Below, piece by piece: positions 15,471 through 52,065 of a stretch of DNA of 64,000 bases. The notes under the pieces are model-generated. The model had not been told where the DNA came from, did not search any database, and worked only from the letters and a program-made list of their open reading frames with translations. Source of the stretch: Patescibacteria group bacterium. GTDB lineage: Bacteria > Patescibacteriota > Patescibacteriia > UBA1558 > GWA2-36-10. The translations under genes and the position numbers were made by a program. The DNA is taken from contig JBAZKN010000002.1 in assembly GCA_041650755.1 (NCBI GenBank), positions 5,030-69,029 on the forward strand, given 5' to 3'. Numbering within the stretch: position 1 is the stretch's first letter; every line of letters begins with the position of its first letter.

Positions 15471-16052
15471 TTATTTTTTTAAAAATGGGTTAGGCATATT
15501 AAATATTATTTTTGGTGTGTGATTATTTATTCTATCCAGAGATATTTTGTATTTTTTGGCGTAGATGATGTCGGCAGCACCAAAAATAGCTTTTTTGTAA
15601 TCCAAACTAAGCCGCCGGCAAATATTTTTGACCTTTTTTTCTGAACAATCTTCGATTTCTAGATATGGGTCTAGGAAGGGCCAATGGTCGATTGTTATTT
15701 CGGCGCCATTTAGTTTCCACAATTCCCGCCAGTTTTCTTGATAGGCTTTTTGTTCGCAGCCCAAGCACAGTAATAATTGTCTAGCTGTTTCCAGGTTGTC
15801 TATTTTTAAGCAAATTTCTTTTTGGTCGGTGATTTTTGAGCCGCGGACCACTTTTAGACTCATGGTAATTTTGTCTTTTTCCTGGCGCAGTCTTAGCCAT
15901 GATCCTTTTTTGTTTTTAGGTAAATTAAAAATGTACCGTTTTTGCAAAAAAGAGGAGTAGATTTTTTTGGCGCCAATTTTTTTAAGTTGTCTTCGGATTG
16001 CCGAGACATTAATATCCAAAAAAGTGGCCTCGTATTCTATGGGTAAACGCAT
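15471..16052 (-). CDS. CYTH-domain protein (CyaB/thiamine-triphosphatase-like)
   Basis: N-terminal EYEATF motif region, 193 aa. Family call is moderate. Confidence 0.45.
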   Translation of the reverse strand: MRLPIEYEATFLDINVSAIRRQLKKIGAKKIYSSFLQKRYIFNLPKNKKGSWLRLRQEKDKITMSLKVVRGSKITDQKEICLKIDNLETARQLLLCLGCEQKAYQENWRELWKLNGAEITIDHWPFLDPYLEIEDCSEKKVKNICRRLSLDYKKAIFGAADIIYAKKYKISLDRINNHTPKIIFNMPNPFLKK

Positions 16053-33514: not shown

Positions 33515-33958
33515 ATGACATGGGAATATATAGCAGGTTTTTTTGATGGCGAAGGATCCATAGTTTACAATGGTAGTGGTTTTAGATTAACAATCGCCCA
33601 AACGAACCTTACGGTGTTAGATAGTATAAGTAGGTTTACAAAAATTGGTCAGGTTATAAAGGTCACCAAACGTCAGGTTCACTGGAAAGATAGTTGGGTA
33701 TATTATATAAGCAAACAGGAAGACATTTTATTTTTTGTGAGACATATCCAAAATTTTTCAATAGTTAAAAAACAAAAAATAAATATAGTATTGCCGAGGC
33801 TCATAAAAGCAGTTTCCAATAATAGAGATAGGATTTTAAAGAGACAACTATTGACTAAATCAGCTAAAGCTCTGAGAAAAAATGGTTTAAGTTATAGAGA
33901 AATAGGCAAGAGATTAAATATGGATTTTGGACAAGCGCGTCGTTTGATAAAAAGATAA
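33515..33958 (+). CDS. Free-standing LAGLIDADG homing endonuclease with C-terminal HTH
   Basis: MTWEYIAGFFDGEGSIVYNGSGFRL: single LAGLIDADG motif (IAGFFDGEGS). C-terminal GLSYREIGKRLNMDFGQARRLIKR. 147 aa. No flanking intron or intein context found. Confidence 0.7.
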   Translation: MTWEYIAGFFDGEGSIVYNGSGFRLTIAQTNLTVLDSISRFTKIGQVIKVTKRQVHWKDSWVYYISKQEDILFFVRHIQNFSIVKKQKINIVLPRLIKAVSNNRDRILKRQLLTKSAKALRKNGLSYREIGKRLNMDFGQARRLIKR

Positions 33959-36457: not shown

Positions 36458-36868
36458 TTATGGAGTGTATTGATCACCTATTTGGCCAATGAATAATTGT
36501 CCGAGAGCATTGATAGCTTTACTGCTCTGATGTTTTTCCTGGCTGGAAAATTGTCCGCTTACGTCTTGGCCGCAATATGGCACGATCAATTGATCGGGTC
36601 GGGGGTGTTGGTCTAAATAATTGGTAGCGTCATAAACTTTATTATTGATAATCAGCCAGCAGTCGTTGCTAGTGTCGTGCTTAGCCACTTCAGCGGCAGA
36701 TAGGGTGCTTTGGCTGCCTGGGTTAATGTTGTTTACCTGATTGTTGTTGGTTAAATTAAAATTCGGCAAATTTTTGCCAGCTTGATTTTTGTAGTGCACA
36801 GCCATGGCTATTGCAAATATTACTACAGCCACGGTTATTAATACGCCAATAATCAGTTCTTTTTTCAT
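36458..36868 (-). CDS. Membrane-anchored cytochrome b5-like heme-binding domain protein
   Basis: KVYDATNYLDQHP resembles the cyt-b5 VYDVTxFxxxHPGG motif. Start at MKKELIIGVL (36868). Confidence 0.45.
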   Translation of the reverse strand: MKKELIIGVLITVAVVIFAIAMAVHYKNQAGKNLPNFNLTNNNQVNNINPGSQSTLSAAEVAKHDTSNDCWLIINNKVYDATNYLDQHPRPDQLIVPYCGQDVSGQFSSQEKHQSSKAINALGQLFIGQIGDQYTP

Positions 36869-36982
36869 AATAAAATTTAATCTTAGCTTTATTATATAAT
36901 ACGCCGGGGTAATAGACAATATTTCATGCGCCGCTTACCTTTACCATGGTTTTTTGCTATACTTAATCAATAAAATATAAAC

Positions 36983-38949: not shown

Positions 38950-39161
38950 AAGTTTTATTTAATTATTATAGGAGAAAGTATTATCCTTTCATGAAATTAA
39001 TACAAAATAACCCCCTTTTTGTTACAAGTAGGGTTTGGGGTATTATAATGAGAAATATTTAATATTTTAGCTAATTTTAGTCAAAATATTATTAAAATTA
39101 GACAAGGAAAAATATTCTGCTATATTAGATATATTAGACACGCAACAAAAAGGCGATTTAT

Positions 39162-39668
39162 TTGTATATTATTATGGGATTTAGTCAGGACAATTTTATA
39201 GCCCATTACGAAAAATACAAAGATAAAATATATGTATATTTTTTGTATCGAGTCGGCTTTAATAGGGAAACAGCCGAGGACCTGACCTCCGAAGTGTTTT
39301 TGAAAGCTCTCAAGAGTTTTTCGACCTTTGACCAAAATAGATCTTTTCAGTCATGGATTTATGCCATTGCTCATAATCATTTGGTTAATCATTATCGAGT
39401 AGCTAATCGCGAAGTGGAGCTGACGGAAAATGTTTCCATCACCCAAAGCGACCACAAAAAAATAGAGCTAGGATATGAGCTAGAGTTGATTTTAAAAGAA
39501 ATAAATAAAATGGAAGCCAACGACAGAGATATTTTATTGCTGCGCTTTGTGGATCAGCTGGATAATTCTGAAATAGCCGAGCTTTTGGGCAAAGAAGAAG
39601 GAGCAGTCCGCACCAAAATTAGTCGCAGCTTGGCAAAGTTAAGAGAAAAATTAGACGGACATGGATAA
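39162..39668 (+). CDS. ECF-type sigma-70 factor
   Basis: Region 2 (ETAEDLTSEVFLKALKSFSTFD...SWIYAIAHNHLVNHYR) and region 4 HTH (DNSEIAELLGKEEGAVRTKISRSLAKLRE). Confidence 0.8.
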   Translation: MYIIMGFSQDNFIAHYEKYKDKIYVYFLYRVGFNRETAEDLTSEVFLKALKSFSTFDQNRSFQSWIYAIAHNHLVNHYRVANREVELTENVSITQSDHKKIELGYELELILKEINKMEANDRDILLLRFVDQLDNSEIAELLGKEEGAVRTKISRSLAKLREKLDGHG

Positions 39669-40627: not shown

Positions 40628-42139
40628 ATGCATCAAGATTTACTAGACAAATTTTTACAAGACAAGCGATGTCTTGCCGTAGTTTGCAACCAGTGGGGTG
40701 ATACTGGCAAGGGCAAGCTGGTGGATCTTTTATCCACTTGGGCTGATATTATTATTCGTGGCACCGGTGGAGCCAACGCCGGACACACCATTGTAGTGGG
40801 CAACCAGAAACACATTTTTCATCTTTTGCCTTCAGGGATTTTGCACGATCTGGCTGGCAAAATAAACGTGATTGGCCGCGGCGTGGCTTTTGATCCGCAA
40901 GCCGTGATAGATGAGCTAAATATTTTGCAGACCGCCGGCAGTGATGTGAAAAATTTAAAGATCAGCCATCAGGCGCCGCTTATTTTGCCCTATCATATTT
41001 TGGTAGATAGGATTGGCGATAAAGAGCAAAAGATCGGGACAACCGGCAGAGGTATTGGGCCGCTCTATACCGACTACGCTGCCCGCCAAACTATTTTTGT
41101 AAACGATATTTTTAATCAGGAAGTTTTTAGAGAAAAATTGACCAAGTATTTAGCCGGTAAACAAAATGTTTTGCTTGGTCTTGATAAAAATATAGCTAAA
41201 GAAGTTTTATCCCATCCGCATTTAGGTGGCGGAATCTATTTTAACAGCGAAACAATTTTGGATATAGAGGCTATTGTAGAAAAATACACCGGAGATTTTG
41301 CCGTCAGGCTAAAGCCATATATTATTGATTTAGAAAATTTCGTCCGAAAGGCTTTGGCTGACAATAAAAAGATTCTTCTGGAAGGCGCCCAGGGCGCATT
41401 ATTAAGTGTTGATCATGGCACTACCAAATACCAGACTTCTTCAGACTGCACTATAGCCGGCCTGGCCAAGGGAGCAGCTTTGAGAGAAAATCAAGTTGAC
41501 CATGTTTTTGGTATTGCCAAGGCATTTTATATGACTAGAGTCGGGCACGGGCCATTTCCCAGTGAGTTTGGTGGCCGGGAAAGCGAGGAGTATTGTGAAC
41601 GCGGCATTACTCGAGAGCAGGAAAAAGCTGATCACGCCAATAAAATAGATGAGTATATAAATTCAGGAGACCAACTAAAGACGGGCATAGCAGTGCGTTT
41701 ATTGGGGGATGAATACGGGGCAACTACTGGCCGGACTCGTCGCAATGGCTGGCTAGATTTAGTAGCTCTTAAATATGCCATGGGGTACAATAGCCATAGT
41801 TTAGCCTTGACCAAGGTAGATGTTTTGGATAAATTTAAAAAAATAAAATTATGTATAGCCTATAAATATATCGGCCCAAATATTTTTTATGCTGGTAGAG
41901 AATTAAAGACCGGTCAGCAAATAGATTTTTTTCCGCGTTTTTCAGAAATTTTATATAATTGCGAGCCAGTCTATCAGGAGTTTGACGGCTGGCAGACAGC
42001 TATTTCCAGTATAGAAGATTATGCTACCCTACCCCAAGCCATAAAAACCATAGTGGAATTTATTGAACAATATACTGTCGGTAAAATTAATATTATTTCT
42101 GTGGGGCCAGATAGACAGCAGACCATTTTAAAGATATAA
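40628..42139 (+). CDS. purA: Adenylosuccinate synthetase with a ~50-aa internal insertion
   Basis: QWGDTGKGKLVDLL, GHTIVVG, GTTGRGIGP, and GATTGRTRRNGWLD...SVGPDR. 503 aa against a typical length of about 430. Confidence 0.85.
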   Translation: MHQDLLDKFLQDKRCLAVVCNQWGDTGKGKLVDLLSTWADIIIRGTGGANAGHTIVVGNQKHIFHLLPSGILHDLAGKINVIGRGVAFDPQAVIDELNILQTAGSDVKNLKISHQAPLILPYHILVDRIGDKEQKIGTTGRGIGPLYTDYAARQTIFVNDIFNQEVFREKLTKYLAGKQNVLLGLDKNIAKEVLSHPHLGGGIYFNSETILDIEAIVEKYTGDFAVRLKPYIIDLENFVRKALADNKKILLEGAQGALLSVDHGTTKYQTSSDCTIAGLAKGAALRENQVDHVFGIAKAFYMTRVGHGPFPSEFGGRESEEYCERGITREQEKADHANKIDEYINSGDQLKTGIAVRLLGDEYGATTGRTRRNGWLDLVALKYAMGYNSHSLALTKVDVLDKFKKIKLCIAYKYIGPNIFYAGRELKTGQQIDFFPRFSEILYNCEPVYQEFDGWQTAISSIEDYATLPQAIKTIVEFIEQYTVGKINIISVGPDRQQTILKI

Positions 42140-42163: not shown

Positions 42164-42190
42164 TGAAATAAAAATTTCAGCATTTGCGTA
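42164..42190 (+). promoter_or_regulatory. ECF (sigmaW-like) promoter TGAAAT-N17-CGTATTAA upstream of the ECF sigma gene; transcript effectively leaderless
   Basis: tgaaat aaaaatttcagcatttg cgtattaa. The ATG lies about 9 nt after the -10. The same bipartite motif recurs at 43491 and 44091. Confidence 0.6.
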
Positions 42191-42199
42191 TTAATACAT

Positions 42200-42778
42200 A
42201 TGGTGAGCGAACAGATCGTGGCTGATAAAACCGATATAGAGCTAGTCAGACTGACCTTGGCCAATCAAGAGAATTTTTTGTATTTGGTCAATCGTTATGA
42301 CCAAAAACTCCTAAAGTTTATCAAGAGAATATCTGGTCTAAATAAAGAAGATGCCGAAGATTTATTACAAGAAGTATTTATAAAAGTTTATCAGAATCTA
42401 AATGATTTTGATCAGAACTTAAAATTTTCTTCTTGGCTTTACCGTATAGCGCATAATCAGGTGATCAGTAATTATCGTAAAAATAAAAGCCGGCCAAGAA
42501 TGTCTTTATTTGATTTGGATTTAGAGTCGTGTGAGCAGTTGGTTAGTGATTTTGATATCAATCATAATGTCGATCAGCAAATTTTGCGGGAAAAAATAAC
42601 CACCGTTTTACGGGGCTTAGACTGGAAATATCGTGAGGTGATGATTTTAAAGTACCTAGAAGATAAAAGCTATGAGGAAATTTCCGATATTATCAAAAAA
42701 CCGGCTAGTACGGTCGGTACCCTATTACGACGGGGTAAAAAAATCCTTCGACAAGAGCTAAAAAAAGAAAATATATGA
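42200..42778 (+). CDS. ECF-type sigma-70 factor (second copy)
   Basis: Region 2 DAEDLLQEVFIKVYQNL...SWLYRIAHNQVISNYRKN and region 4 YEEISDIIKKPASTVGTLLRRGKKILRQEL. Confidence 0.8.
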   Translation: MVSEQIVADKTDIELVRLTLANQENFLYLVNRYDQKLLKFIKRISGLNKEDAEDLLQEVFIKVYQNLNDFDQNLKFSSWLYRIAHNQVISNYRKNKSRPRMSLFDLDLESCEQLVSDFDINHNVDQQILREKITTVLRGLDWKYREVMILKYLEDKSYEEISDIIKKPASTVGTLLRRGKKILRQELKKENI

Positions 42779-43485
42779 ATAATTTTGGTCAACAAATTTT
42801 GACGGAAATAAAAGAGCATAATATTCAGCCCAAAAAACGCTGGGAGTTTTTGTTTAAGAATATTATTCTTTGGGTCATCTTGATTTCGGCTATTTTTTTA
42901 GCCAGTCTAGCTAGTTCGGTCACGATTTTTATGCTCAAGCATGCAGTGGGATCTACTTATATACCAGATTTTCATCCACTCAAAAGATTATTGCTAGATT
43001 TGCCATTTTTTTGGCTAGTCAGCCTGGCATTATTTTCTTTGCTGGCCTGGTATGATTTTAAAAACACCAAGCGCGGCTACAAATACCATACTTGGGTGAT
43101 AGTGATCGGCAGCTTGCTGGTGAGCATTGTTTTGGGTGCTGTTATTTATCAGGCCGGCGTGGGTGAAAGGCTAGAGGATGTATTTTTTAGGCGCGTGCCT
43201 TTTTATAAAGAGATGTTTAGAAGGGGTGGCAGGATTTTAGTCGAGCCAGATAAAGGGCATTTGGCTGGAGTAGTAAGATCAGTGGCGTCCGATGCTATTA
43301 CCGTGGAGGATTTTAAAGGAGATGTCTGGGTTATCAACACTAGTACTAGCCAGTTTCGTGTTGGCCAGAGAGTGATGTTGATCGGCAAAATAGGAGATGA
43401 CGATAGGTTTGTTTGCGAGAGCATTAAGCCTTGGCTTAAACCGCAGGGTCATGTGGCCCCACCACCAATGTTTCCGCGGCCATAA
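42775..43485 (+). CDS. Polytopic membrane protein overlapping the sigma gene stop (putative anti-sigma factor)
   Basis: 4-nt overlap (ATGA). Short cytoplasmic N-terminus, four TM segments and a C-terminal soluble domain. Confidence 0.5.
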   Translation: MNNFGQQILTEIKEHNIQPKKRWEFLFKNIILWVILISAIFLASLASSVTIFMLKHAVGSTYIPDFHPLKRLLLDLPFFWLVSLALFSLLAWYDFKNTKRGYKYHTWVIVIGSLLVSIVLGAVIYQAGVGERLEDVFFRRVPFYKEMFRRGGRILVEPDKGHLAGVVRSVASDAITVEDFKGDVWVINTSTSQFRVGQRVMLIGKIGDDDRFVCESIKPWLKPQGHVAPPPMFPRP

Positions 43486-43490
43486 TTATT

Positions 43491-43517
43491 TGAAATAATT
43501 TTTATTTGTTTGGCGTA
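43491..43517 (+). promoter_or_regulatory. ECF (sigmaW-like) promoter TGAAAT-N17-CGTATAAT
   Basis: tgaaat aatttttatttgtttgg cgtataat. Confidence 0.6.
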
Positions 43518-43573
43518 TAATCTAGTGTCGAAGGAATTTGGCCAATTCCTATTAACTATTAATCAAATAAATT

Positions 43574-44023
43574 ATGGACAAAAAAAGATATTTACTAGTA
43601 GCATTTTTGGGGCTATTGATCACTACGGTAGCGGTCGGGGCAACCACTTTAGCTTTTGGTGGCCGAGCTAACCTTGGCGCCAATGGAAATAGCCAGACAT
43701 GGCCAGCTAAAGAGCAGCGACAAGCCCCCGCGAACATGCAAGCTATCACCAATAATGATTATAATTCTTGGGCAGCGTCTATGACGACTCGAGTGGCTGA
43801 AATGCGCCAGCAAGCTAGTGATTTGGAAGCCAAAATAAATCAGGAGACTTTCAACAAACTAGTGCAGGCTCATGAGCTTATGCAAGCCGGCAAGCAAGAT
43901 GAGGCTAAAGCTATCTTTGACGAATTGGGCATGTTCGGCCCATTTGGCGGGCGCATGGGAGATAAGGGCATGGGCCACGGACCAAATGCAGCTAGTACAA
44001 ATACTGGGCAAACAACTGAATAA
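43574..44023 (+). CDS. Secreted low-complexity protein (149 aa)
   Basis: Signal peptide followed by a Q/A/G/N-rich sequence. Under the ECF-type promoter. Confidence 0.5.
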   Translation: MDKKRYLLVAFLGLLITTVAVGATTLAFGGRANLGANGNSQTWPAKEQRQAPANMQAITNNDYNSWAASMTTRVAEMRQQASDLEAKINQETFNKLVQAHELMQAGKQDEAKAIFDELGMFGPFGGRMGDKGMGHGPNAASTNTGQTTE

Positions 44024-44047
44024 TTTTTTAGCAAAAAACTCACCTCT

Positions 44048-44086
44048 AAAATCCAGCCCCGAGTAACTCATAAGGGCTGGATTTTA
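44048..44086 (+). terminator. Intrinsic terminator (12-bp stem aaaatccagccc / gggctggatttt)
   Basis: Read directly from the sequence. Overlaps the next promoter's -35 region. Confidence 0.75.
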
Positions 44087-44090
44087 GGTT

Positions 44091-44117
44091 TGAAATAAAT
44101 TGAGTCAGTTTGGCGTA
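44091..44117 (+). promoter_or_regulatory. ECF (sigmaW-like) promoter TGAAAT-N17-CGTATTAT for the efflux operon
   Basis: tgaaat aaattgagtcagtttgg cgtattat. Confidence 0.6.
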
Positions 44118-44165
44118 TTATATAAAAGATGCTCTGGTTTATTGGTTAGTTATTATTTATAAATT

Positions 44166-45935
44166 ATGTCTAAAAAACGTAAATTATGGGGAGCGATTAT
44201 TTTAGCCTTTGTGCTGGTAGTCGGGTATTTTGTTTGGCAAAATATGGCCAACAAAAAAGTAGAAACCAAGTATGTTTTAGCCAAAGTAGAAAAAGGAGAC
44301 CTGATCAAAAATATTTCCGGCAGCGGTCAGGTGTCAGTATCCAATCAAGTAGATGTTAAGCCGAAAGTCTCCGGCGATGTCATCAGTGTTGCAGTCAGCG
44401 TTGGCCAATCAGTTAAGGCTGGAGATATTATAGCACAGATCAATGCTAGAGACGCTTACAAAGCAGTCAGAGATGCCCAGGCTAATTTAGCCAGCGCTAA
44501 ATTGTCTTTAACAAAACTTCAACAGCCAGCTGATGATCTAAGTATCTTGCAAGCAGAAAATTCTTTGGCTCAAGCCCAAGAATCAAAACAAAGCAGCCAA
44601 GAAGACCTGCAAAAAGCCTATGACGATGGTTTTAATGACGTGGCTAATGCTTTTTTGGATTTGCCGAACATAATTTCAGGAATTTATACTATGCTTTATG
44701 GTAGTGCTATCAATATTAGTCAGAGCAATATGGATTATTATACTGACAGCGCTAGTCAGTATGACTTGAAAGCCCTGAGTTATCGCGACGATGTTACGGC
44801 TGCCTATAATACAGCCCGCAGTTCTTATGATAAAAATTTTAGTGATTATAAGGTAACGGACAGATTTTCTAACATCAGCACCATTGAAGCATTGATTAAC
44901 GAAACTTATGGTGCCAGTAAAAACATTGCCCAATTAGTCAAAAGCGCTAACAATTTAATTCAGTTTTATGAAGACCAACTATCCAAACATGATTTGAAAC
45001 CGCTGGCAACTGCCGATACTTACCTGAGCAGTCTAAATACTTATACCGGAAAGATTAATAATCATATTGCTAGCTTGCTATCTATCAAACAGACAATTCA
45101 AAAAAACGAACAGGCGATTATTGACGCTGATCGTACTATTGCAGAAAAGACAGCCAGTTTGAGCGATCTAAAGGCTGGTACAGACCTCCTAGATTTACAA
45201 GCGCAGCAATTGGTGGTGCAGCAACGGCAGAATGCCCTGCTTGATGCTCAACAAGAACTAGCCGACTATGTGATCAAGGCGCCATTTGATGGCGTGATTG
45301 CTGCTTTGGATGTCAAAAAAGGAGATATAGTTTCATCAGCTACGGCTATAGCCACTTTGATTACTAAGCAACAGATGGCGGAGATTTCCCTAAATGAAGT
45401 AGACGCAGCTACAGTAAGGCCGGGGCAAAAGGCTGTTCTAACTTTTGATGCTGTTTCCGATCTGACTATTTCGGGGGAAGTGGGAGAAGTTGATACTCTA
45501 GGAACCGTCAGTCAGGGAGTAGTGACTTATGGCGTCAAGATTGTTTTTGATATTCAAGATGAAAGAGTGAGGCCTGGTATGAGCGCTAGTGTTTCCATTA
45601 TCACTGATCTCAAGCAGGGGGTTTTATTGCTTGCCACTGCGGCCGTCAAATCAAGTGGGGAAAATTATTATGTTGAAGTGCCAAACGAAGAGCTGGATAG
45701 CGCTGCGGCCACAGCTAGTACTGGCGTGGTTTTGCAGAATCAACTAAAACAGCAAGCGGTGCAGATAGGCATAGCCAACGATTCTTTGACAGAAATAAGT
45801 AGCGGTTTATCTGAAGGTGATCTGGTAATTTTGCGATCCATAAGTTCCGGCAGCTCCACCAATAATACAAATTCTTCTTCCCAGGGGAAGAGCATTTTCC
45901 AAATGACTGGTGGTGGACCGCAAGGCAGACCATAA
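44166..45935 (+). CDS. HlyD/MacA-family periplasmic adaptor (membrane fusion) protein
   Basis: N-terminal TM segment, long coiled-coil region and C-terminal beta-barrel region. 589 aa. Confidence 0.7.
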   Translation: MSKKRKLWGAIILAFVLVVGYFVWQNMANKKVETKYVLAKVEKGDLIKNISGSGQVSVSNQVDVKPKVSGDVISVAVSVGQSVKAGDIIAQINARDAYKAVRDAQANLASAKLSLTKLQQPADDLSILQAENSLAQAQESKQSSQEDLQKAYDDGFNDVANAFLDLPNIISGIYTMLYGSAINISQSNMDYYTDSASQYDLKALSYRDDVTAAYNTARSSYDKNFSDYKVTDRFSNISTIEALINETYGASKNIAQLVKSANNLIQFYEDQLSKHDLKPLATADTYLSSLNTYTGKINNHIASLLSIKQTIQKNEQAIIDADRTIAEKTASLSDLKAGTDLLDLQAQQLVVQQRQNALLDAQQELADYVIKAPFDGVIAALDVKKGDIVSSATAIATLITKQQMAEISLNEVDAATVRPGQKAVLTFDAVSDLTISGEVGEVDTLGTVSQGVVTYGVKIVFDIQDERVRPGMSASVSIITDLKQGVLLLATAAVKSSGENYYVEVPNEELDSAAATASTGVVLQNQLKQQAVQIGIANDSLTEISSGLSEGDLVILRSISSGSSTNNTNSSSQGKSIFQMTGGGPQGRP

Positions 45936-45945
45936 TTTAGCATCC

Positions 45946-46629
45946 ATGGTAGAATGTAAGGACATCATTAAGGTTTACCAGAGCGGTGAAGCCGAGGCAA
46001 AAGTCTTGAAAGGCATATCTTTTGTGATTGAAGACGGAGAATTTGTGGCTATCATGGGCCCATCCGGCTCAGGTAAATCCACCCTGATGCATATTATTGG
46101 CGCTTTGGATACGCCTACCAGTGGCCAGTATTTTTTTGATGGCAAAGATACGTCAGAGCTAGCCGATGATGAGCTGGCTGATATTAGAAGAAAAAAAATT
46201 GGTTTTGTTTTTCAGAGCTTTAATCTTTTATCTAGGGCCACAGTTTTGAGGAATGTAGTTTTACCCTTGGTTTATACCGGTATAGACAAGAGTAAAAGAG
46301 AAAAGCTAGCCAAGGCCGCCTTGATAAACGCTGGCTTAGATGAAGCGCATTTTCACCATCTATCCAATCGGCTATCTGGTGGCCAGATGCAGCGAGTGGC
46401 GATAGCCAGGGCTTTAGTTAATGATCCTAGCTTGATTTTGGCTGATGAGCCGACAGGTAACCTAGACACCAAGACTGGCTTAATTGTTTTGGATACATTC
46501 CGTAGGCTTAATACTCAAGATCATCGCACCATTGTTTTAATTACTCACGAGCACGATGTTGCCCAGCATGCAGACAGAATTATTACCATTAGAGATGGTT
46601 TGATTGTTGGAGACACAAGGCATCGTTAA
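45946..46629 (+). CDS. ABC transporter ATP-binding protein (MacB/LolD-type)
   Basis: Walker [10 protein letters not shown], signature [15 protein letters not shown] and Walker [12 protein letters not shown]. Confidence 0.85.
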
Positions 46630-46638
46630 AATAATAAT

Positions 46639-47862
46639 ATGCGAAGTTCAGATATATTCGAGGAAACATATTTGGCCCTGCTGGCCAATAAAGTCAGATC
46701 GGTCTTGACCATACTTGGTATTGTCATTGGTATTGCTTCGGTGATTGCCATGATAGCTATTGGCCAGGGATCGCAGGGGACAATTCAATCCAGCATTCAA
46801 TCTCTGGGGTCCAATTTGATTCTGGTAATGCCGGGCATGCAGAGAGGGGTGGGCACGCAAATAAGTCAGGGGCGAGGCTCAGCTCAGACGCTTACCCTGG
46901 AGGATGCTTATGCTATTAGAGATGAGGTTGATAGTGTTGAGGCAGTAGCCCCGGAATTATCTGGTCGTTATCAAGTGACTGCCAAAGGCACCAACACTAA
47001 TACTTCTATAGTCGGCACTACGTCCAGTTATCCCAGCATTAGAAATGTAGAGATTGATAGTGGTTTATTTATATCAGATCAAAATGTTGGCAGTATGTCC
47101 AAGGTGGCTGTCCTGGGGCCGACTACTAGGGATGATGTTTTTGGTGAGGGGGTAGATCCGGTGGGACAGACCATTCGTATTAATCAGATAGATTTTAAAG
47201 TGATTGGCATCACCAAGGTCAAAGGCGGTAGCGGTTTTAGTAATCAAGATGATATGATTTTTGTGCCGATTACGACAGCTCAACAATTTTTAGCGGGTAA
47301 TGATAGGGTTAGCACTATCAGCGTGCAGGCCACCGATCAATCAGTTATGATGCAGATGCAATCGGATATTACCTCCCTATTATTAAGTCGACACAATATT
47401 TCTGATTCTACTTTGGCTGATTTTAGCACCTTGAATCAGACTGATATAGTAGCCGCCGCTACTTCTGTGGCCGACACTTTTACCACATTATTGGCTTCAG
47501 TAGCCGCCATTTCACTTTTGGTGGGTGGTATAGGTATTATGAATATGATGTTGACCACTGTGACAGAGCGGACTAAAGAAATTGGTTTACGAAAAGCTAT
47601 TGGCGCCAAGCGCAGGGATATTAGTTCCCAGTTTTTAGCAGAAGCTGTGGCTCTGACTTTTATTGGCGGCTTTATTGGTATAATTTTAGGTTGGTTAGTG
47701 TCTTGGGGCGTGCATAAATTTGGTAATATTGCTACTCAAGTATCGTTATCGTCTATTATTTTGGCTTTTTGTGTTTCAGCTGGCATCGGCATTATCTTTG
47801 GCTATTATCCAGCTCGCCGGGCGGCTCGTCTCAATCCGATCGATGCTTTGCGTTTTGAATAA
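46639..47862 (+). CDS. ABC transporter permease, FtsX/MacB family
   Basis: N-terminal TM segment, a periplasmic domain of about 220 aa and C-terminal three TM segments. 407 aa. Confidence 0.8.
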   Translation: MRSSDIFEETYLALLANKVRSVLTILGIVIGIASVIAMIAIGQGSQGTIQSSIQSLGSNLILVMPGMQRGVGTQISQGRGSAQTLTLEDAYAIRDEVDSVEAVAPELSGRYQVTAKGTNTNTSIVGTTSSYPSIRNVEIDSGLFISDQNVGSMSKVAVLGPTTRDDVFGEGVDPVGQTIRINQIDFKVIGITKVKGGSGFSNQDDMIFVPITTAQQFLAGNDRVSTISVQATDQSVMMQMQSDITSLLLSRHNISDSTLADFSTLNQTDIVAAATSVADTFTTLLASVAAISLLVGGIGIMNMMLTTVTERTKEIGLRKAIGAKRRDISSQFLAEAVALTFIGGFIGIILGWLVSWGVHKFGNIATQVSLSSIILAFCVSAGIGIIFGYYPARRAARLNPIDALRFE

Positions 47863-47885
47863 AAATAATTAATTATATAAAAAAC

Positions 47886-48326
47886 ATGAAGAAATTTTTA
47901 CCAATCATGATTATTCTGGCAGTCATAATAGCGGGAGGAGCTTTCTATGGCGGCATAGTTTATCAAAGGTCAAAGATGAGTCAAAAAAATATGGCCAATT
48001 TTCCTAACGCTGGGCAAATGAATGGCACCAACCGAGCGATCAATAATCGCTCTGGCATGGATTTTGTGAGTGGGGAGGTTCTAAAGCAAGATGTTGCTAG
48101 TTTGACTATTAAGTTGAAAGACGGTGGCTCTAGGATTATTTTGTATGCCAGTTCTACGCCAATCATGAAATCTACTATTGGTTCTGTTGGTGATTTGCAG
48201 ATCGGCCAAAGTGTCAGTGCCAATGGCACAACTAATTCTGACGGTAGTCTTAGTGCTCAAGCAATACAGATTAGGTCGGAGATGCCGGTTGGGGCCGAGC
48301 CTGCTCCGGGGCCAGTCGGGGGATAG
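47886..48326 (+). CDS. Secreted/anchored small protein (146 aa)
   Basis: N-terminal TM/signal segment. Last gene of the efflux operon. Confidence 0.5.
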   Translation: MKKFLPIMIILAVIIAGGAFYGGIVYQRSKMSQKNMANFPNAGQMNGTNRAINNRSGMDFVSGEVLKQDVASLTIKLKDGGSRIILYASSTPIMKSTIGSVGDLQIGQSVSANGTTNSDGSLSAQAIQIRSEMPVGAEPAPGPVGG

Positions 48327-51040: not shown

Positions 51041-51106
51041 CACTTGACAGCATTTTATTTTTGTTATATATATTTAGACATATATCTAAATATCTAATTA
51101 ATTCCC

Positions 51107-51391
51107 ATGTCTTTAACAGAAACATTTGCCGCCCTTTCCGAGCCAAATAGGCAAAAAATCTTAGATTTATTGAAAAAAGGTGAATTGTCAGTCAATGAGA
51201 TCGCCAAGAATTTAGACATTACTTTGGCCACCCTATCTCATCACTTGGATATCCTCAAGCGAGCTGACCTGATTTCCAGTCGTCGTAAGGGGCAGCAGAT
51301 TATTTATTCTTTAAATTTTAGCATTTTAGAGGAGGTCGCCGAAAAAATCGCTAAATTTTTAGCCGTAAAAAAATATAAAAATAATAATTAA
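51107..51391 (+). CDS. ArsR/SmtB-family transcriptional regulator (SdpR-like)
   Basis: Winged HTH LSVNEIAKNLDITLATLSHHLDILKRADLI. A TTGACA-N17-TATATA promoter and a near-palindrome tagacatatatcta lie upstream. Confidence 0.75.
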   Translation: MSLTETFAALSEPNRQKILDLLKKGELSVNEIAKNLDITLATLSHHLDILKRADLISSRRKGQQIIYSLNFSILEEVAEKIAKFLAVKKYKNNN

Positions 51392-51399
51392 TAATCATT

Positions 51400-52065
51400 A
51401 TGAAATCACCAATTAAGTTAACTTGGAAAAGCGAAATTTGGGCGATACTTTTGGTCATCGCCGTTATCGTATTAAGCTTTTATTTTTATGCTCATTTTCC
51501 CGAGCGGGCAGTCACCCATTGGGATTTTAGAGGCGTGCCCAATGGCTGGTCAGGTCGAGCGGGGGCGGCCTTTGGTGTAATGGCTATCATACCTGGTCTA
51601 TATCTGATGTTTTTATTGCTACCACTTGTCGATCCTAAAAAAGAGCGCTATGCCGAATTTGCCAAAGTCTTTCAGGCCTTTAAAAATATTTTGTTAACCT
51701 TATTTTTCATTATTTATATCGTAGCCGGTCTATATAATATGGGCATACCAGTCAGAGTGGAATTTTGGATACCATGGTTGATAGGTCTGTTGATGATTTT
51801 TATCGGTAACTACCTGGGTAAGATCAAGCGCAATTGGTTTATGGGCATTCGTACCCCTTGGACTTTGTCTTCGGAAAATGTTTGGAACAAGACGCATCGA
51901 GTTGGCGGTTGGGCGTTCATTTTATTTGGTGTTTGCATTATTATTTCGCCAAACTTATCACCGTTTTGGGGCGCTGTCATATTTTTTGCAGGCGTTTTGT
52001 TGGCGGTTGTTGGCACCATACTTTATTCTTATATTATTTTTCGTCAGGAGCAAAAGAATAAATAA
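51400..52065 (+). CDS. SdpI/YhfL-family membrane protein (DUF1648 plus SdpI domain)
   Basis: AVTHWDFRGVPNGWSGRAGA (DUF1648 box) and NWFMGIRTPWTLSSENVWNKTHRVGG (SdpI box). Six TM segments. Confidence 0.75.
   Translation: MKSPIKLTWKSEIWAILLVIAVIVLSFYFYAHFPERAVTHWDFRGVPNGWSGRAGAAFGVMAIIPGLYLMFLLLPLVDPKKERYAEFAKVFQAFKNILLTLFFIIYIVAGLYNMGIPVRVEFWIPWLIGLLMIFIGNYLGKIKRNWFMGIRTPWTLSSENVWNKTHRVGGWAFILFGVCIIISPNLSPFWGAVIFFAGVLLAVVGTILYSYIIFRQEQKNK

What the first reader, a model, noticed from the sequence alone, without database searches (positions are those of the whole stretch)
42164..48326. SigmaW-like ECF promoter motif TGAAAT-N17-CGTAT(T/A)A found three times, including one autoregulatory and effectively leaderless
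The bipartite motif, with the conserved gtttgg immediately before CGTAT, precedes three units:
- the second ECF sigma gene (42164-42190, with the ATG about 9 nt after the -10);
- the secreted protein gene 43574;
- the HlyD-ABC-FtsX efflux operon 44166-48326.

It matches the Bacillus sigmaW consensus TGAAAC-N16-CGTA, whose regulon is an antimicrobial-peptide resistance response and includes SdpI-family proteins. The window also carries an SdpR/SdpI-like pair at 51107-52065.

The first ECF sigma (39162) lacks the motif. The two sigma/anti-sigma modules flank purA.
Basis: partly seen in the sequence, partly recalled or inferred. Interest (0 to 1): 0.6.

Follow-up and report, generated by a model that had tools for sequence, protein, structure and literature searches.

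The report
Conserved ECF sigma promoter regulon
A short two-part DNA signal found four times in this uncultivated (Patescibacteria/CPR) bacterium is very likely the promoter read by its own SigW-like alternative sigma factor, which switches on itself, a secreted protein, a MacAB-type efflux pump and probably a membrane cytochrome b5-like protein; this is an ordinary kind of stress regulon, here in a poorly studied lineage.

Summary
TGAAAT-N17-CGTAT occurs four times in the window, not three (expected 0.07). All four sites are intergenic and point at a gene:
- ECF sigma-2 (42200)
- a secreted 149-aa protein (43574)
- the MacA/HlyD-ABC-MacB-p146 operon (44166-48326)
- newly, a membrane cytochrome b5-like gene (36868, minus strand)

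In ten related genome loci the two blocks, TGAAATAA and GCGTAT(T/A)A, stay fixed while the spacer is randomised. A motif-only metagenome scan recovered further sigma, partner-protein and MacAB loci.

The -10 hexamer sits exactly 7 nt before the sigma ATG in 14 loci (sigma 50-78% identical), although those 7 nt vary. This supports a leaderless autoregulatory transcript.

The sigma is closest to B. subtilis SigW but falls below the ortholog cut-offs. The -35 ends in T or G, not C. The co-transcribed partner is an unannotated three-transmembrane protein with an OB-like C-terminal domain, not RsiW.

The 'gtttgg' is not conserved. The SdpR/SdpI pair has its own sigma-70-type promoter and operator. 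Sigma-1 has a different motif of its own.

Verdict: a clean new member of a known kind. No transcription start site has been mapped experimentally.

The parts
42164..42194 (+). Autoregulatory promoter of sigma-2: -35 block TGAAATAA (42164-42171), -10 block GCGTATTAA (42186-42194). The hexamer CGTATT ends 7 nt before the ATG at 42200.
   Evidence: Conserved in L001-L010 and in more distant loci.
42200..42778 (+). ECF sigma factor 'sigma-2' (192 aa), SigW-like.
   Evidence: Pfam Sigma70_r2 and Sigma70_r4_2. Best PDB hit is SigW 5WUQ, E 2.7e-24. Best NCBIfam models are the SigW equivalogs, but below their cut-offs.
42775..43485 (+). Co-transcribed membrane partner 'asf2' (236 aa), the putative anti-sigma factor. 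It has a conserved ~28-aa N-terminal cytoplasmic segment, 3 predicted TM helices and a C-terminal OB-like beta domain. Its start overlaps the sigma stop (ATGA).
   Evidence: No Pfam, NCBIfam or PDB sequence hit. Always directly downstream of an ECF sigma gene.
43491..43521 (+). Second promoter copy: TGAAATAA-N14-GCGTATAAT, with a T-tract after the -35 block. It starts 5 nt after the asf2 stop.
   Evidence: Conserved in L001-L009, L040, L118 and L010.
43533..43549 (+). Conserved 6-bp hairpin near the predicted 5' end of the secreted-protein mRNA (GGAATT-TGGCC-AATTCC).
   Evidence: All 6 pairs are kept in 11 sequences, with one compensatory change; the folding energy is weak.
43574..44023 (+). 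Secreted or membrane-anchored 149-aa helical protein 'sec149' with a Gly/Met/His-rich tail. A core regulon member.
44045..44088 (+). Strong stem-loop (-26 kcal/mol, z -5.3), a probable terminator of the sec149 transcript, immediately before the third promoter.
44091..44121 (+). Third promoter copy: TGAAATAA-N14-GCGTATTAT, 46 nt upstream of the HlyD/MacA-like gene.
   Evidence: Conserved wherever the pump operon is present (L002, L004, L009; also L072, and a variant in L136).
44166..48326 (+). MacAB/YknXYZ-type efflux operon: MFP (HlyD/MacA-like, 44166-45935), ABC ATPase (ORF 45910-46629, likely start ATG 45946), MacB-type permease (46639-47862) and a small secreted 146-aa protein (47886-48326).
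   Evidence: Pfam, PDB MacB and MacA hits, synteny.
36896..36926 (-). It overlaps a sigma-70-like TTGTCT-N17-TATAAT.
   Evidence: Conservation could not be tested. One analogous case in L065.
36458..36868 (-). Membrane-anchored cytochrome b5-like heme-binding protein (136 aa), a probable regulon member.
   Evidence: Pfam Cyt-b5, 70.5 bits.

Best explanation
The bipartite element TGAAAT(A/T)A-N14-GCGTAT(T/A)A is the promoter recognised by RNA polymerase carrying the ECF sigma factor encoded at 42200-42778.

Shown:
- The element is statistically non-random and lies in front of four transcription units in the right orientation.
- It is conserved as two blocks at fixed spacing across orthologous and more distant loci.
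- It travels with this sigma gene and its membrane partner.

Inferred:
- Sigma-2 is held inactive at the membrane by the co-translated partner asf2. A short, conserved cytoplasmic N-terminus would bind sigma, and three TM helices plus an extracytoplasmic OB-like domain would sense.
- An envelope signal releases sigma-2.
- Sigma-2 then transcribes its own operon from a promoter placed so that transcription starts at or within about 2 nt of the AUG. This gives a leaderless mRNA, in a genome that hardly uses Shine-Dalgarno sequences.
- It also transcribes a secreted helical, possibly Spy/ZraP-like protein, a MacA-ABC-MacB efflux pump operon and probably a membrane cytochrome b5-like protein.

Functionally this is a small cell-envelope or antimicrobial-compound defence regulon, analogous to B. 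subtilis SigW with yknWXYZ.
For: - Four exact matches against 0.07 expected, all intergenic and correctly oriented.
- In 25 sites from the window plus L001-L009, the block positions carry 1.6-2.0 bits and the spacer about 0-0.8 bits. The PWM separates sites (>=20 bits) from everything else (<12 bits).
- The motif tracks the sigma gene, not purA, which is up to 6 kb away in relatives.
- A motif-only scan of metagenomes returned 120 loci. Eight of them carry an asf2 homolog and 12 a sigma-2-like gene next to the site. L072 is a HlyD-ABC-MacB operon and L081 a sec149-like gene.
- The CGTAxT hexamer is exactly 7 nt from the sigma ATG in the window, L001-L009, L071, L087, L098 and L118, while those 7 nt differ.
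- The N-terminus of the protein is conserved from that ATG.
- Only 7 of 57 genes have an SD core, against 7% background.
- The sigma is closest to SigW.
- CGTA is the SigW-selective -10 element and TGAAAC its -35 element (PMC5758882). yknWXYZ (MFP + ABC + MacB-like) is SigW-dependent (PMC8144471, PMC4887032).
- The sigma-asf2 junction is ATGA, or TAA plus 4 nt, in all loci.
- Four of four distant asf2-family members sit directly behind an ECF sigma gene. In L136 the same pump operon follows, and related promoter variants are present.
- The sigma-70 consensus scan does not call sites 1-3.
Against: - No transcription start, expression or binding data exist for this uncultivated organism. Assigning the motif to sigma-2 rather than sigma-1 rests on the autoregulation principle.
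- The -35 block ends in T (or G), not the C of the near-universal ECF 'AAC'.
- asf2 has no recognisable anti-sigma domain, and its model has low confidence (pLDDT 61.6).
- Site 4 overlaps a good sigma-70-like promoter (10 of 12 matches), and its conservation could not be tested.
- Only 64 kb of the genome was searched, so the regulon is incomplete.
- The function of sec149 rests on sub-threshold hits.
Confidence: 0.85

Rival explanations
1. The sites are housekeeping (sigma-70/SigA-type) promoters of this lineage: TTGAAA as a -35 and TATTAA, TATAAT or TATTAT as a -10.
For: Sites 2 and 3 read tTTGAAA...TATAAT/TATTAT. Site 4 overlaps TTGTCT-N17-TATAAT, which matches 10 of 12 positions. The genome is AT-rich.
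Against: - The implied spacer is 19 nt, and the sigma-70 scan (16-18 nt) does not call sites 1-3.
- The invariant positions are C-G-T-A and TGAAAT, not the first T of TTGACA (ggTGAAAT, caTGAAAT, gaTGAAAT) nor the last T of TATAAT.
- Canonical TTGACA-N17-TATATA and TAGACA-N17-TATAAT promoters exist elsewhere in the same window.
- The motif occurs only next to this sigma module and its targets.
Confidence: 0.04
2. The element is an operator for a DNA-binding regulator rather than a promoter.
For: Conserved sequence blocks upstream of co-regulated genes are also what a transcription-factor regulon looks like.
Against: - The element is asymmetric, strictly oriented with the downstream gene and has a fixed 17-nt gap typical of -35/-10 geometry.
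- It sits at a fixed 7 nt from the ATG of a gene with no room for any other promoter.
- It resembles the known ECF consensus (PMC5758882).
- No transcription-factor gene co-occurs with it apart from the sigma.
Confidence: 0.04
3. The promoters are read by the other ECF sigma of the window (sigma-1, 39174-39668), or by both sigmas (overlapping regulons, as with B. subtilis SigW/X/M/V).
For: - The two motifs are similar in register: sigma-1 AAC-N16-TGTAT against sigma-2 AAT-N17-CGTAT.
- The target promoters, but not the autoregulatory one, carry a T-tract after the -35. In B. subtilis this feature broadens ECF recognition (PMC5758882).
- Relatives put a cyt b5-like gene under the sigma-1-type motif.
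Against: - Sigma-1 has its own distinct motif, conserved in front of its own gene and the divergent operon.
- The sigma-2 motif is found in loci that contain no sigma-1 (L003, L005, L006, L040, L087).
Confidence: 0.07

Closest known systems
Bacillus subtilis SigW regulon (ECF01 in the Staron classification): autoregulated sigW-rsiW, promoters TGAAAC-N16-CGTA, targets including yknWXYZ and yfhLM
   Same: - The sigma is the closest solved or curated relative.
- The -10 core CGTA is identical, and the -35 core TGAAA is shared.
- There is an autoregulated sigma/membrane-partner operon.
- A target operon has the same architecture as yknXYZ: an MFP, an ABC ATPase and a MacB-like permease (PMC8144471, PMC4887032).
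- A T-tract follows the -35 in target promoters but not in the autoregulatory one (PMC5758882).
   Different: - Scores are far below the SigW equivalog cut-offs (121 vs 209 bits, 110.6 vs 243.1 bits).
- The -35 ends in T/G, not C, and the spacer is 17 (16 in some relatives).
- The partner is a 3-TM protein with a ~28-aa N-terminus and an OB-like domain. It has no zinc-binding anti-sigma domain and no similarity to RsiW.
- The sigma gene is leaderless.
- The SdpI-family gene in the window is not under the motif.
- The organism is a Patescibacteria/CPR bacterium.
Generic autoregulated ECF sigma/anti-sigma modules (ECF classification of Casas-Pastor et al. 2021, PMC7826278), e.g. ECF258 (Firmicutes, DUF4179 anti-sigma, associated with ABC transporters)
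   Same: A two-domain sigma (sigma-2 and sigma-4 regions), a co-transcribed membrane partner, a self-promoter with group-specific -35 and -10 elements, and a conserved transporter in the neighbourhood.
   Different: The ECF group could not be assigned, because no ECF Hub models were available. The paper does not mention candidate phyla, and ECF01 is 'scattered' in the new scheme. The partner family has no Pfam model.
Leaderless mRNAs driven by a promoter directly abutting the start codon (e.g. Mycobacterium, Deinococcus; PMC3160421)
   Same: A -10 element lies at a fixed short distance (7 nt) from an ATG, there is no Shine-Dalgarno sequence, and the spacing is conserved without sequence conservation.
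   Different: Here the abutting promoter is ECF-type, not housekeeping, and the evidence is comparative only.

Membership tests
ECF (group IV) sigma-70 family | Sigma-70 regions 2 and 4 present, region 3 absent, about 170-200 aa | tested here: met
   Pfam Sigma70_r2 (63.7 bits) and Sigma70_r4_2 (47.5 bits) in 192 aa, with no r3 hit. TIGR02937 sigma70-ECF scores 104.7 bits against a cut-off of 42.9.
ECF (group IV) sigma-70 family | Autoregulatory promoter with conserved -35 and -10 blocks upstream of its own operon | tested here: met
   TGAAATAA-N14-GCGTATTAA is conserved upstream of the sigma gene in L001-L010 and in more distant loci.
ECF (group IV) sigma-70 family | -35 element containing the 'AAC' motif | tested here: not met
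   The -35 is TGAAAT, or TGAAAG in some relatives. C never occupies that position in 25 or more sites.
ECF (group IV) sigma-70 family | Co-transcribed cognate anti-sigma factor with a recognisable anti-sigma domain | tested here: inconclusive
   A membrane protein is translationally coupled (ATGA, or a 4-nt gap) in all loci. It always follows an ECF sigma gene, including 4 of 4 distant members. It has no Pfam, NCBIfam or PDB sequence match, and its N-terminal cytoplasmic part is only about 28 aa.
SigW orthologs (NCBIfam NF007223 / TIGR02948) | Score at or above the equivalog cut-off | tested here: not met
   121.4 bits against 209, and 110.6 bits against 243.1. These are nevertheless the two best specific models.
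SigW orthologs (NCBIfam NF007223 / TIGR02948) | Promoter TGAAAC-N16-CGTA | tested here: inconclusive
   CGTA is met and invariant. The -35 last base is T/G rather than C. The spacer is 17 in the window and close relatives, and 16 in L010 and in the sec149 promoter of L098/L118. Consensus taken from PMC5758882.
SigW orthologs (NCBIfam NF007223 / TIGR02948) | RsiW-type single-pass zinc-binding anti-sigma partner | tested here: not met
   The partner has 3 predicted TM helices and no zf-HC2, RsiW or any other Pfam hit.
MacAB / YknXYZ-type (type VII) ABC efflux system | Membrane fusion protein, ABC ATPase, and a permease with a MacB periplasmic core domain plus an FtsX domain | tested here: met
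   Pfam hits: HlyD_3 and HlyD_D23, ABC_tran, and MacB_PCD (167.5 bits) with FtsX. PDB hits: MacB 5GKO at E 1.8e-66 and MacA at 1.5e-16.
Leaderless mRNA | Transcription start at, or within a few nt of, the start codon | not testable with these tools
   Only indirect evidence: an invariant 7-nt gap between the CGTAxT hexamer and the ATG in 14 loci with variable gap sequence, no SD, and the ATG conserved as the protein N-terminus.
SdpR/SdpI immunity-signalling pair as a member of this regulon | ECF motif upstream of sdpR-sdpI | tested here: not met
   The pair is genuine: SdpR NF033789 scores 100.9 bits against a cut-off of 100, and Pfam SdpI scores 72.9 bits. No PWM hit >=12 bits lies near it. 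Instead there is TTGACA-N17-TATATA plus the palindrome TTTAGA-N6-TCTAAA.

The most novel reading that the evidence does not exclude
The partner protein asf2 may represent a large, undescribed class of ECF anti-sigma factor.

- The family has about 2,100 clusters at 50% identity and no Pfam model.
- It is found in CPR bacteria and at least one Desulfococcaceae genome.
- Members have only a ~28-residue conserved cytoplasmic N-terminus, three TM helices and an extracytoplasmic OB-fold sensor domain.

Together with its SigW-like sigma, a TGAAA(T/G)AA-N13/14-(G/A)CGTA promoter, a Spy/ZraP-like secreted protein and a MacAB pump, it would form an ancient, portable envelope-defence cassette. For tiny episymbiotic CPR cells, this could be a main inducible defence against host or competitor antimicrobials.
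Probability: 0.4. Interest if true: 0.55.

Novelty: new member of a known kind. Interest (0 to 1): 0.4.

Why it matters
Almost nothing is known about transcriptional regulation in Patescibacteria/CPR. Full-text searches found no paper on ECF regulons in these lineages.

This locus gives a precise, conserved promoter motif, a cognate sigma, a candidate new anti-sigma family and a defined target set: a secreted helical protein, a MacAB-type pump and a cyt b5-like protein.

All of these parts can be moved into E. coli or B. subtilis and tested without cultivating the organism. The motif can also be used directly to enumerate the regulon in hundreds of related MAGs.

The finding does not overturn anything. 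It extends the SigW-type envelope-stress paradigm to a new phylum-level group and offers another orthogonal sigma/promoter pair.

Tried and rejected
- **Chance occurrence:** rejected by shuffles, the PWM null and conservation.
- **Sigma-70 reading:** rejected for sites 1-3. It remains possible as an overlapping promoter at site 4.
- **'gtttgg' as part of the motif:** rejected. It is not conserved in orthologs.
- **SdpRI as a regulon member:** rejected.
- **Known RNA family in the conserved sec149 leader:** none. Rfam gathering thresholds gave only four tRNAs in the window.
- **Similarity of asf2 to known anti-sigma factors:** no hit by Pfam, NCBIfam or a PDB profile search. Foldseek of the low-confidence model gave only weak OB-fold matches, with E >0.005.
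- **Similarity between the asf2 C-terminal domain and p146:** not significant, E 0.17.
- **Structure of sec149:** the model is poor (pLDDT 54.8). Profile against PDB gave only spurious uS2 hits. Pfam hits to Metal_resist (CpxP/Spy/ZraP clan) are sub-threshold, in 7 of 27 members.
- **Orthologs of the cyt b5-like gene, to test site 4:** only 5 distant homologs, and those whose DNA could be read (L131-L133) come from unrelated contigs without the motif.
- **ECF group assignment in the 2021 classification:** not possible. The paper has no CPR content, and ECF01 is scattered across new groups.
- **Fold library:** afdb50 was unavailable.

Full report
**What is in the sequence**

The window comes from a Patescibacteria (CPR) MAG. 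The protein at 42775-43485 is 100% identical to an NCBI 'Patescibacteria group bacterium' hypothetical protein on a 236-kb contig.

The pattern TGAAAT-N16-18-CGTAT has four exact matches, against 0.07 expected. Three are those reported (42164, 43491, 44091, plus strand, all N17). The fourth lies on the minus strand at 36926-36899. A looser pattern (GAAAY-N16-19-CGTA) finds exactly the same four.

Each site is intergenic and points at a gene:
- The ECF sigma gene at 42200.
- A 149-aa protein with an N-terminal hydrophobic signal or anchor at 43574.
- An operon of a HlyD/MacA-like membrane fusion protein, an ABC ATPase, a MacB_PCD+FtsX permease and a 146-aa secreted protein (44166-48326).
- A membrane-anchored cytochrome b5-like protein (36868-36458, minus strand).

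**Conservation**

I aligned relatives of the protein downstream of the sigma (A1) and fetched ten genome loci (L001-L010). Synteny is preserved: sigma-1 with a DUF5667 protein, then purA, then sigma-2 with asf2, then sec149, then the optional pump operon.

- The motif is present upstream of sigma-2 in all ten loci.
- It is present upstream of sec149 in all ten. L010 has the variant TGAAAGAA with spacer 16.
- It is present upstream of the pump operon in all three loci that have one.

Over 25 sites the two blocks TGAAATAA and GCGTAT(T/A)A carry 1.6-2.0 bits per position, while the 14-nt gap carries about 0-0.8 bits. This is selection on two blocks at fixed spacing, not mere recent common ancestry.

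A PWM from these sites scores true sites at >=20 bits and nothing else in the window or L001-L010 between 12 and 20 bits. The null gives 0.74 hits >=12 bits per 64 kb.

Only the G before CGTA is.

**An independent test by motif alone**

I scanned the metagenome collection for the 16 specified bases TGAAATAA-N14-GCGTATTA. Most are unrelated chance matches, as expected. However:
- 8 loci carry an asf2 homolog, and 12 a sigma-2-like gene (36-78% identical), directly at the site.
- L072 is a HlyD-ABC-MacB operon.
- L081 and others are sec149-family genes.
- L087 and L119 have three sites each, in front of the sigma, an ABC/MacB operon and a small secreted protein.

Since asf2 relatives are rare, this co-occurrence cannot be chance.

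**Leaderless configuration**

The hexamer CGTAxT ends exactly 7 nt before the sigma ATG in the window, L001-L009, L071, L087, L098 and L118. The 7 nt themselves differ: AATACAT, AAAACAT, AAGAAAC, AATAAAC, AATCTTT and others.

The encoded N-terminus (M-V/A-x-N/E...-K-S/T-D-L/I-E-L-V) is conserved from that ATG. The alignment to SigW starts at residue 19, which leaves no plausible downstream start.

ECF holoenzymes normally start a few nt downstream of the -10 element (my background knowledge, not tested here). This places +1 at or within about 2 nt of the A of the AUG.

More distant relatives (L010, L012, L083, L018, L119) have 14-33-nt leaders. The leaderless state is therefore a feature of a sub-clade.

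The genome barely uses Shine-Dalgarno sequences: 7 of 57 genes have an SD core, against 7% at random positions. Several other genes have a TATAAT-like hexamer 6-8 nt before the ATG. Leaderless initiation is thus plausible and not exceptional here. All of this is inference; no start site has been mapped.

**Which sigma, and how SigW-like**

Sigma-2 has regions 2 and 4 only.
- Its best solved relative is B. subtilis SigW (5WUQ, E 2.7e-24). The next, E. coli RpoE, is at 1e-14.
- Its best specific NCBIfam models are the two SigW equivalogs, but at about half their cut-offs.

The SigW consensus is TGAAAC for the -35 and CGTA for the -10, with CGTA conferring SigW selectivity (PMC5758882). Here CGTA is invariant, the -35 ends in T (G in some relatives, never C), and the spacer is 17 (16 in some relatives).

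SigW controls yknWXYZ, which comprises an MFP, an ABC ATPase and a MacB-like permease (PMC8144471, PMC4887032). The target operon here has the same architecture. In L136 the MFP even hits the Pfam 'Beta-barrel_YknX' model.

It therefore works like SigW but is not a SigW ortholog.

**The partner protein**

asf2 overlaps the sigma stop codon (ATGA). In relatives the gap is 4 nt.
- It has a nearly invariant ~28-aa N-terminus (EILDKIKEQNIQPKKRWEFLFKN).
- It has three predicted TM helices and a C-terminal beta domain (pLDDT 61.6).
- The beta domain weakly resembles OB folds.
- It matches no Pfam, NCBIfam or PDB sequence.

The family is large: 2,094 representatives at E<=1e-3. Members are unnamed, and one cluster is from Desulfococcaceae.

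Four distant members that I looked up all lie directly behind an ECF sigma gene. In L136 the same pump operon follows. Promoter variants of the same type are present there: TGAAAGAA-N14-ACGTAATAA, TGCAATAA-N14-TCGTATTAT, and a similar -35-like block followed by GCGTATTAT before the L136 MFP gene.

An anti-sigma role is the natural inference but is untested.

**Other targets**

- sec149 is a helical protein with a Gly/Met/His-rich tail. Sub-threshold Pfam hits to Metal_resist (the CpxP/Spy/ZraP clan) occur in 7 of 27 members. This is a weak lead that it is an envelope-stress chaperone-like protein.
- Its promoter starts 5 nt after asf2, with no terminator between them. A strong hairpin (-26 kcal/mol, z -5.3) follows sec149, just before the pump promoter.
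- Site 4 (cyt b5) is an exact match but overlaps a sigma-70-like TTGTCT-N17-TATAAT. No orthologs with usable context were found. The only analogue is L065, where an exact motif lies 207 nt upstream of a similar membrane cyt b5-like gene. I rate site 4 at about 0.6-0.7.

**Claims about the neighbourhood**

- The first ECF sigma indeed lacks the motif. It has its own: G(T/x)AACA-N14-TTGTAT. One copy ends 6 nt before its ATG. A second points at the divergent FN3-repeat gene. Both are conserved in relatives.
- SdpR and SdpI are genuine. They are preceded by TTGACA-N17-TATATA and a perfect palindrome, not by the ECF motif.
- purA lies between the two sigma modules.

**Verdict**

The finding is confirmed and extended. 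It is a conserved, autoregulated ECF regulon with a SigW-like sigma in a CPR bacterium, and so a new member of a well-known kind.

The less ordinary aspects are the unannotated, widespread partner family, the non-AAC -35 element, and the strictly conserved promoter-ATG abutment. I found no literature on ECF regulons in these lineages.

Noticed in passing
window 39144-39167 (+) and 39023-39000 (-): The first ECF sigma (39174-39668; best NCBIfam model is the BldN family) has its own bipartite motif, G(T/x)AACA-N14-TTGTAT. One copy ends 6 nt before its ATG, so this gene is again near-leaderless. A second copy points at the divergent FN3-repeat gene. Both are conserved in L001, L002, L004, L009 and L010. 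In those relatives the divergent operon is a cyt b5-like gene plus the FN3 gene. A sigma-70-like TAGACA-N16/17-TATAAT lies about 45 nt further upstream.
   Followed up: partly
window 51044-51090: Upstream of sdpR there is a canonical TTGACA-N17-TATATA (51044-51072), followed at once by a perfect inverted repeat TTTAGA-CATATA-TCTAAA (51073-51090). This is a likely SdpR auto-operator.
   Followed up: no
window 43533-43549; L001-L009, L040: The ~50-nt leader of the secreted-protein gene is more conserved than the promoter spacer. It has a 6-bp hairpin with an invariant GGCC-containing loop near the predicted 5' end (one compensatory pair change) and then a TTAATTATTAA-like box. There is no Rfam match. 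It may be an mRNA-stabilising 5' stem-loop or a regulatory site.
   Followed up: partly
L118 1501-1463 (-): In a more distant relative, the leader of the sec149 homolog consists of five TTAAC repeats at 7-8-nt intervals: GTTAACAGTTAACATTTAACAATTAACGCTTAACTTATG.
   Followed up: no
window, all promoter copies; L001-L009: The target promoter of sec149 always has a T-tract right after the -35 block (TGAAATAATTTTT). The autoregulatory promoter never does (TGAAATAAA...). This parallels the -35-proximal T-tract that modulates ECF selectivity in B. subtilis (PMC5758882).
   Followed up: partly
window 36867-36838 (-): An extra PWM hit (21 bits, spacer 16), TGAAAAAA-N13-GCGTATTAA, lies inside the first codons of the cyt b5-like gene, 59 nt downstream of site 4. 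It is probably chance, since it overlaps ATG AAA AAA.
   Followed up: no
window, genome-wide: Shine-Dalgarno cores are almost absent upstream of genes: 7 of 57, against 7% background. Positions -12 to -4 are A-rich. Several genes have a TATAAT-like hexamer 6-8 nt before the ATG, for example tgGTATAAT+7 nt at 16052 (-) and TTTACA-N17-TAATAT+6 nt at 33515 (+). This suggests frequent leaderless or SD-independent initiation.
   Followed up: partly
window 42775-43485 and relatives: The asf2 family is large (2,094 representatives at 50% identity with E<=1e-3) and has no Pfam model. At least one cluster is outside CPR (Desulfococcaceae). In every context examined it follows an ECF sigma gene.
   Followed up: partly
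window 43574-44023: sec149 ends in a conserved Gly/Met/His-rich tail (GMFGP-MG-GHMGGRGMG), reminiscent of ZraP or of Met-rich metal-binding tails. Pfam hits to Metal_resist are weak and sub-threshold, in 7 of 27 members.
   Followed up: partly
window 40628-42139: purA encodes 503 aa, whereas the Pfam adenylosuccinate synthetase model has 416 positions. The match spans residues 18-500, which implies roughly 70 residues of insertions.
   Followed up: no
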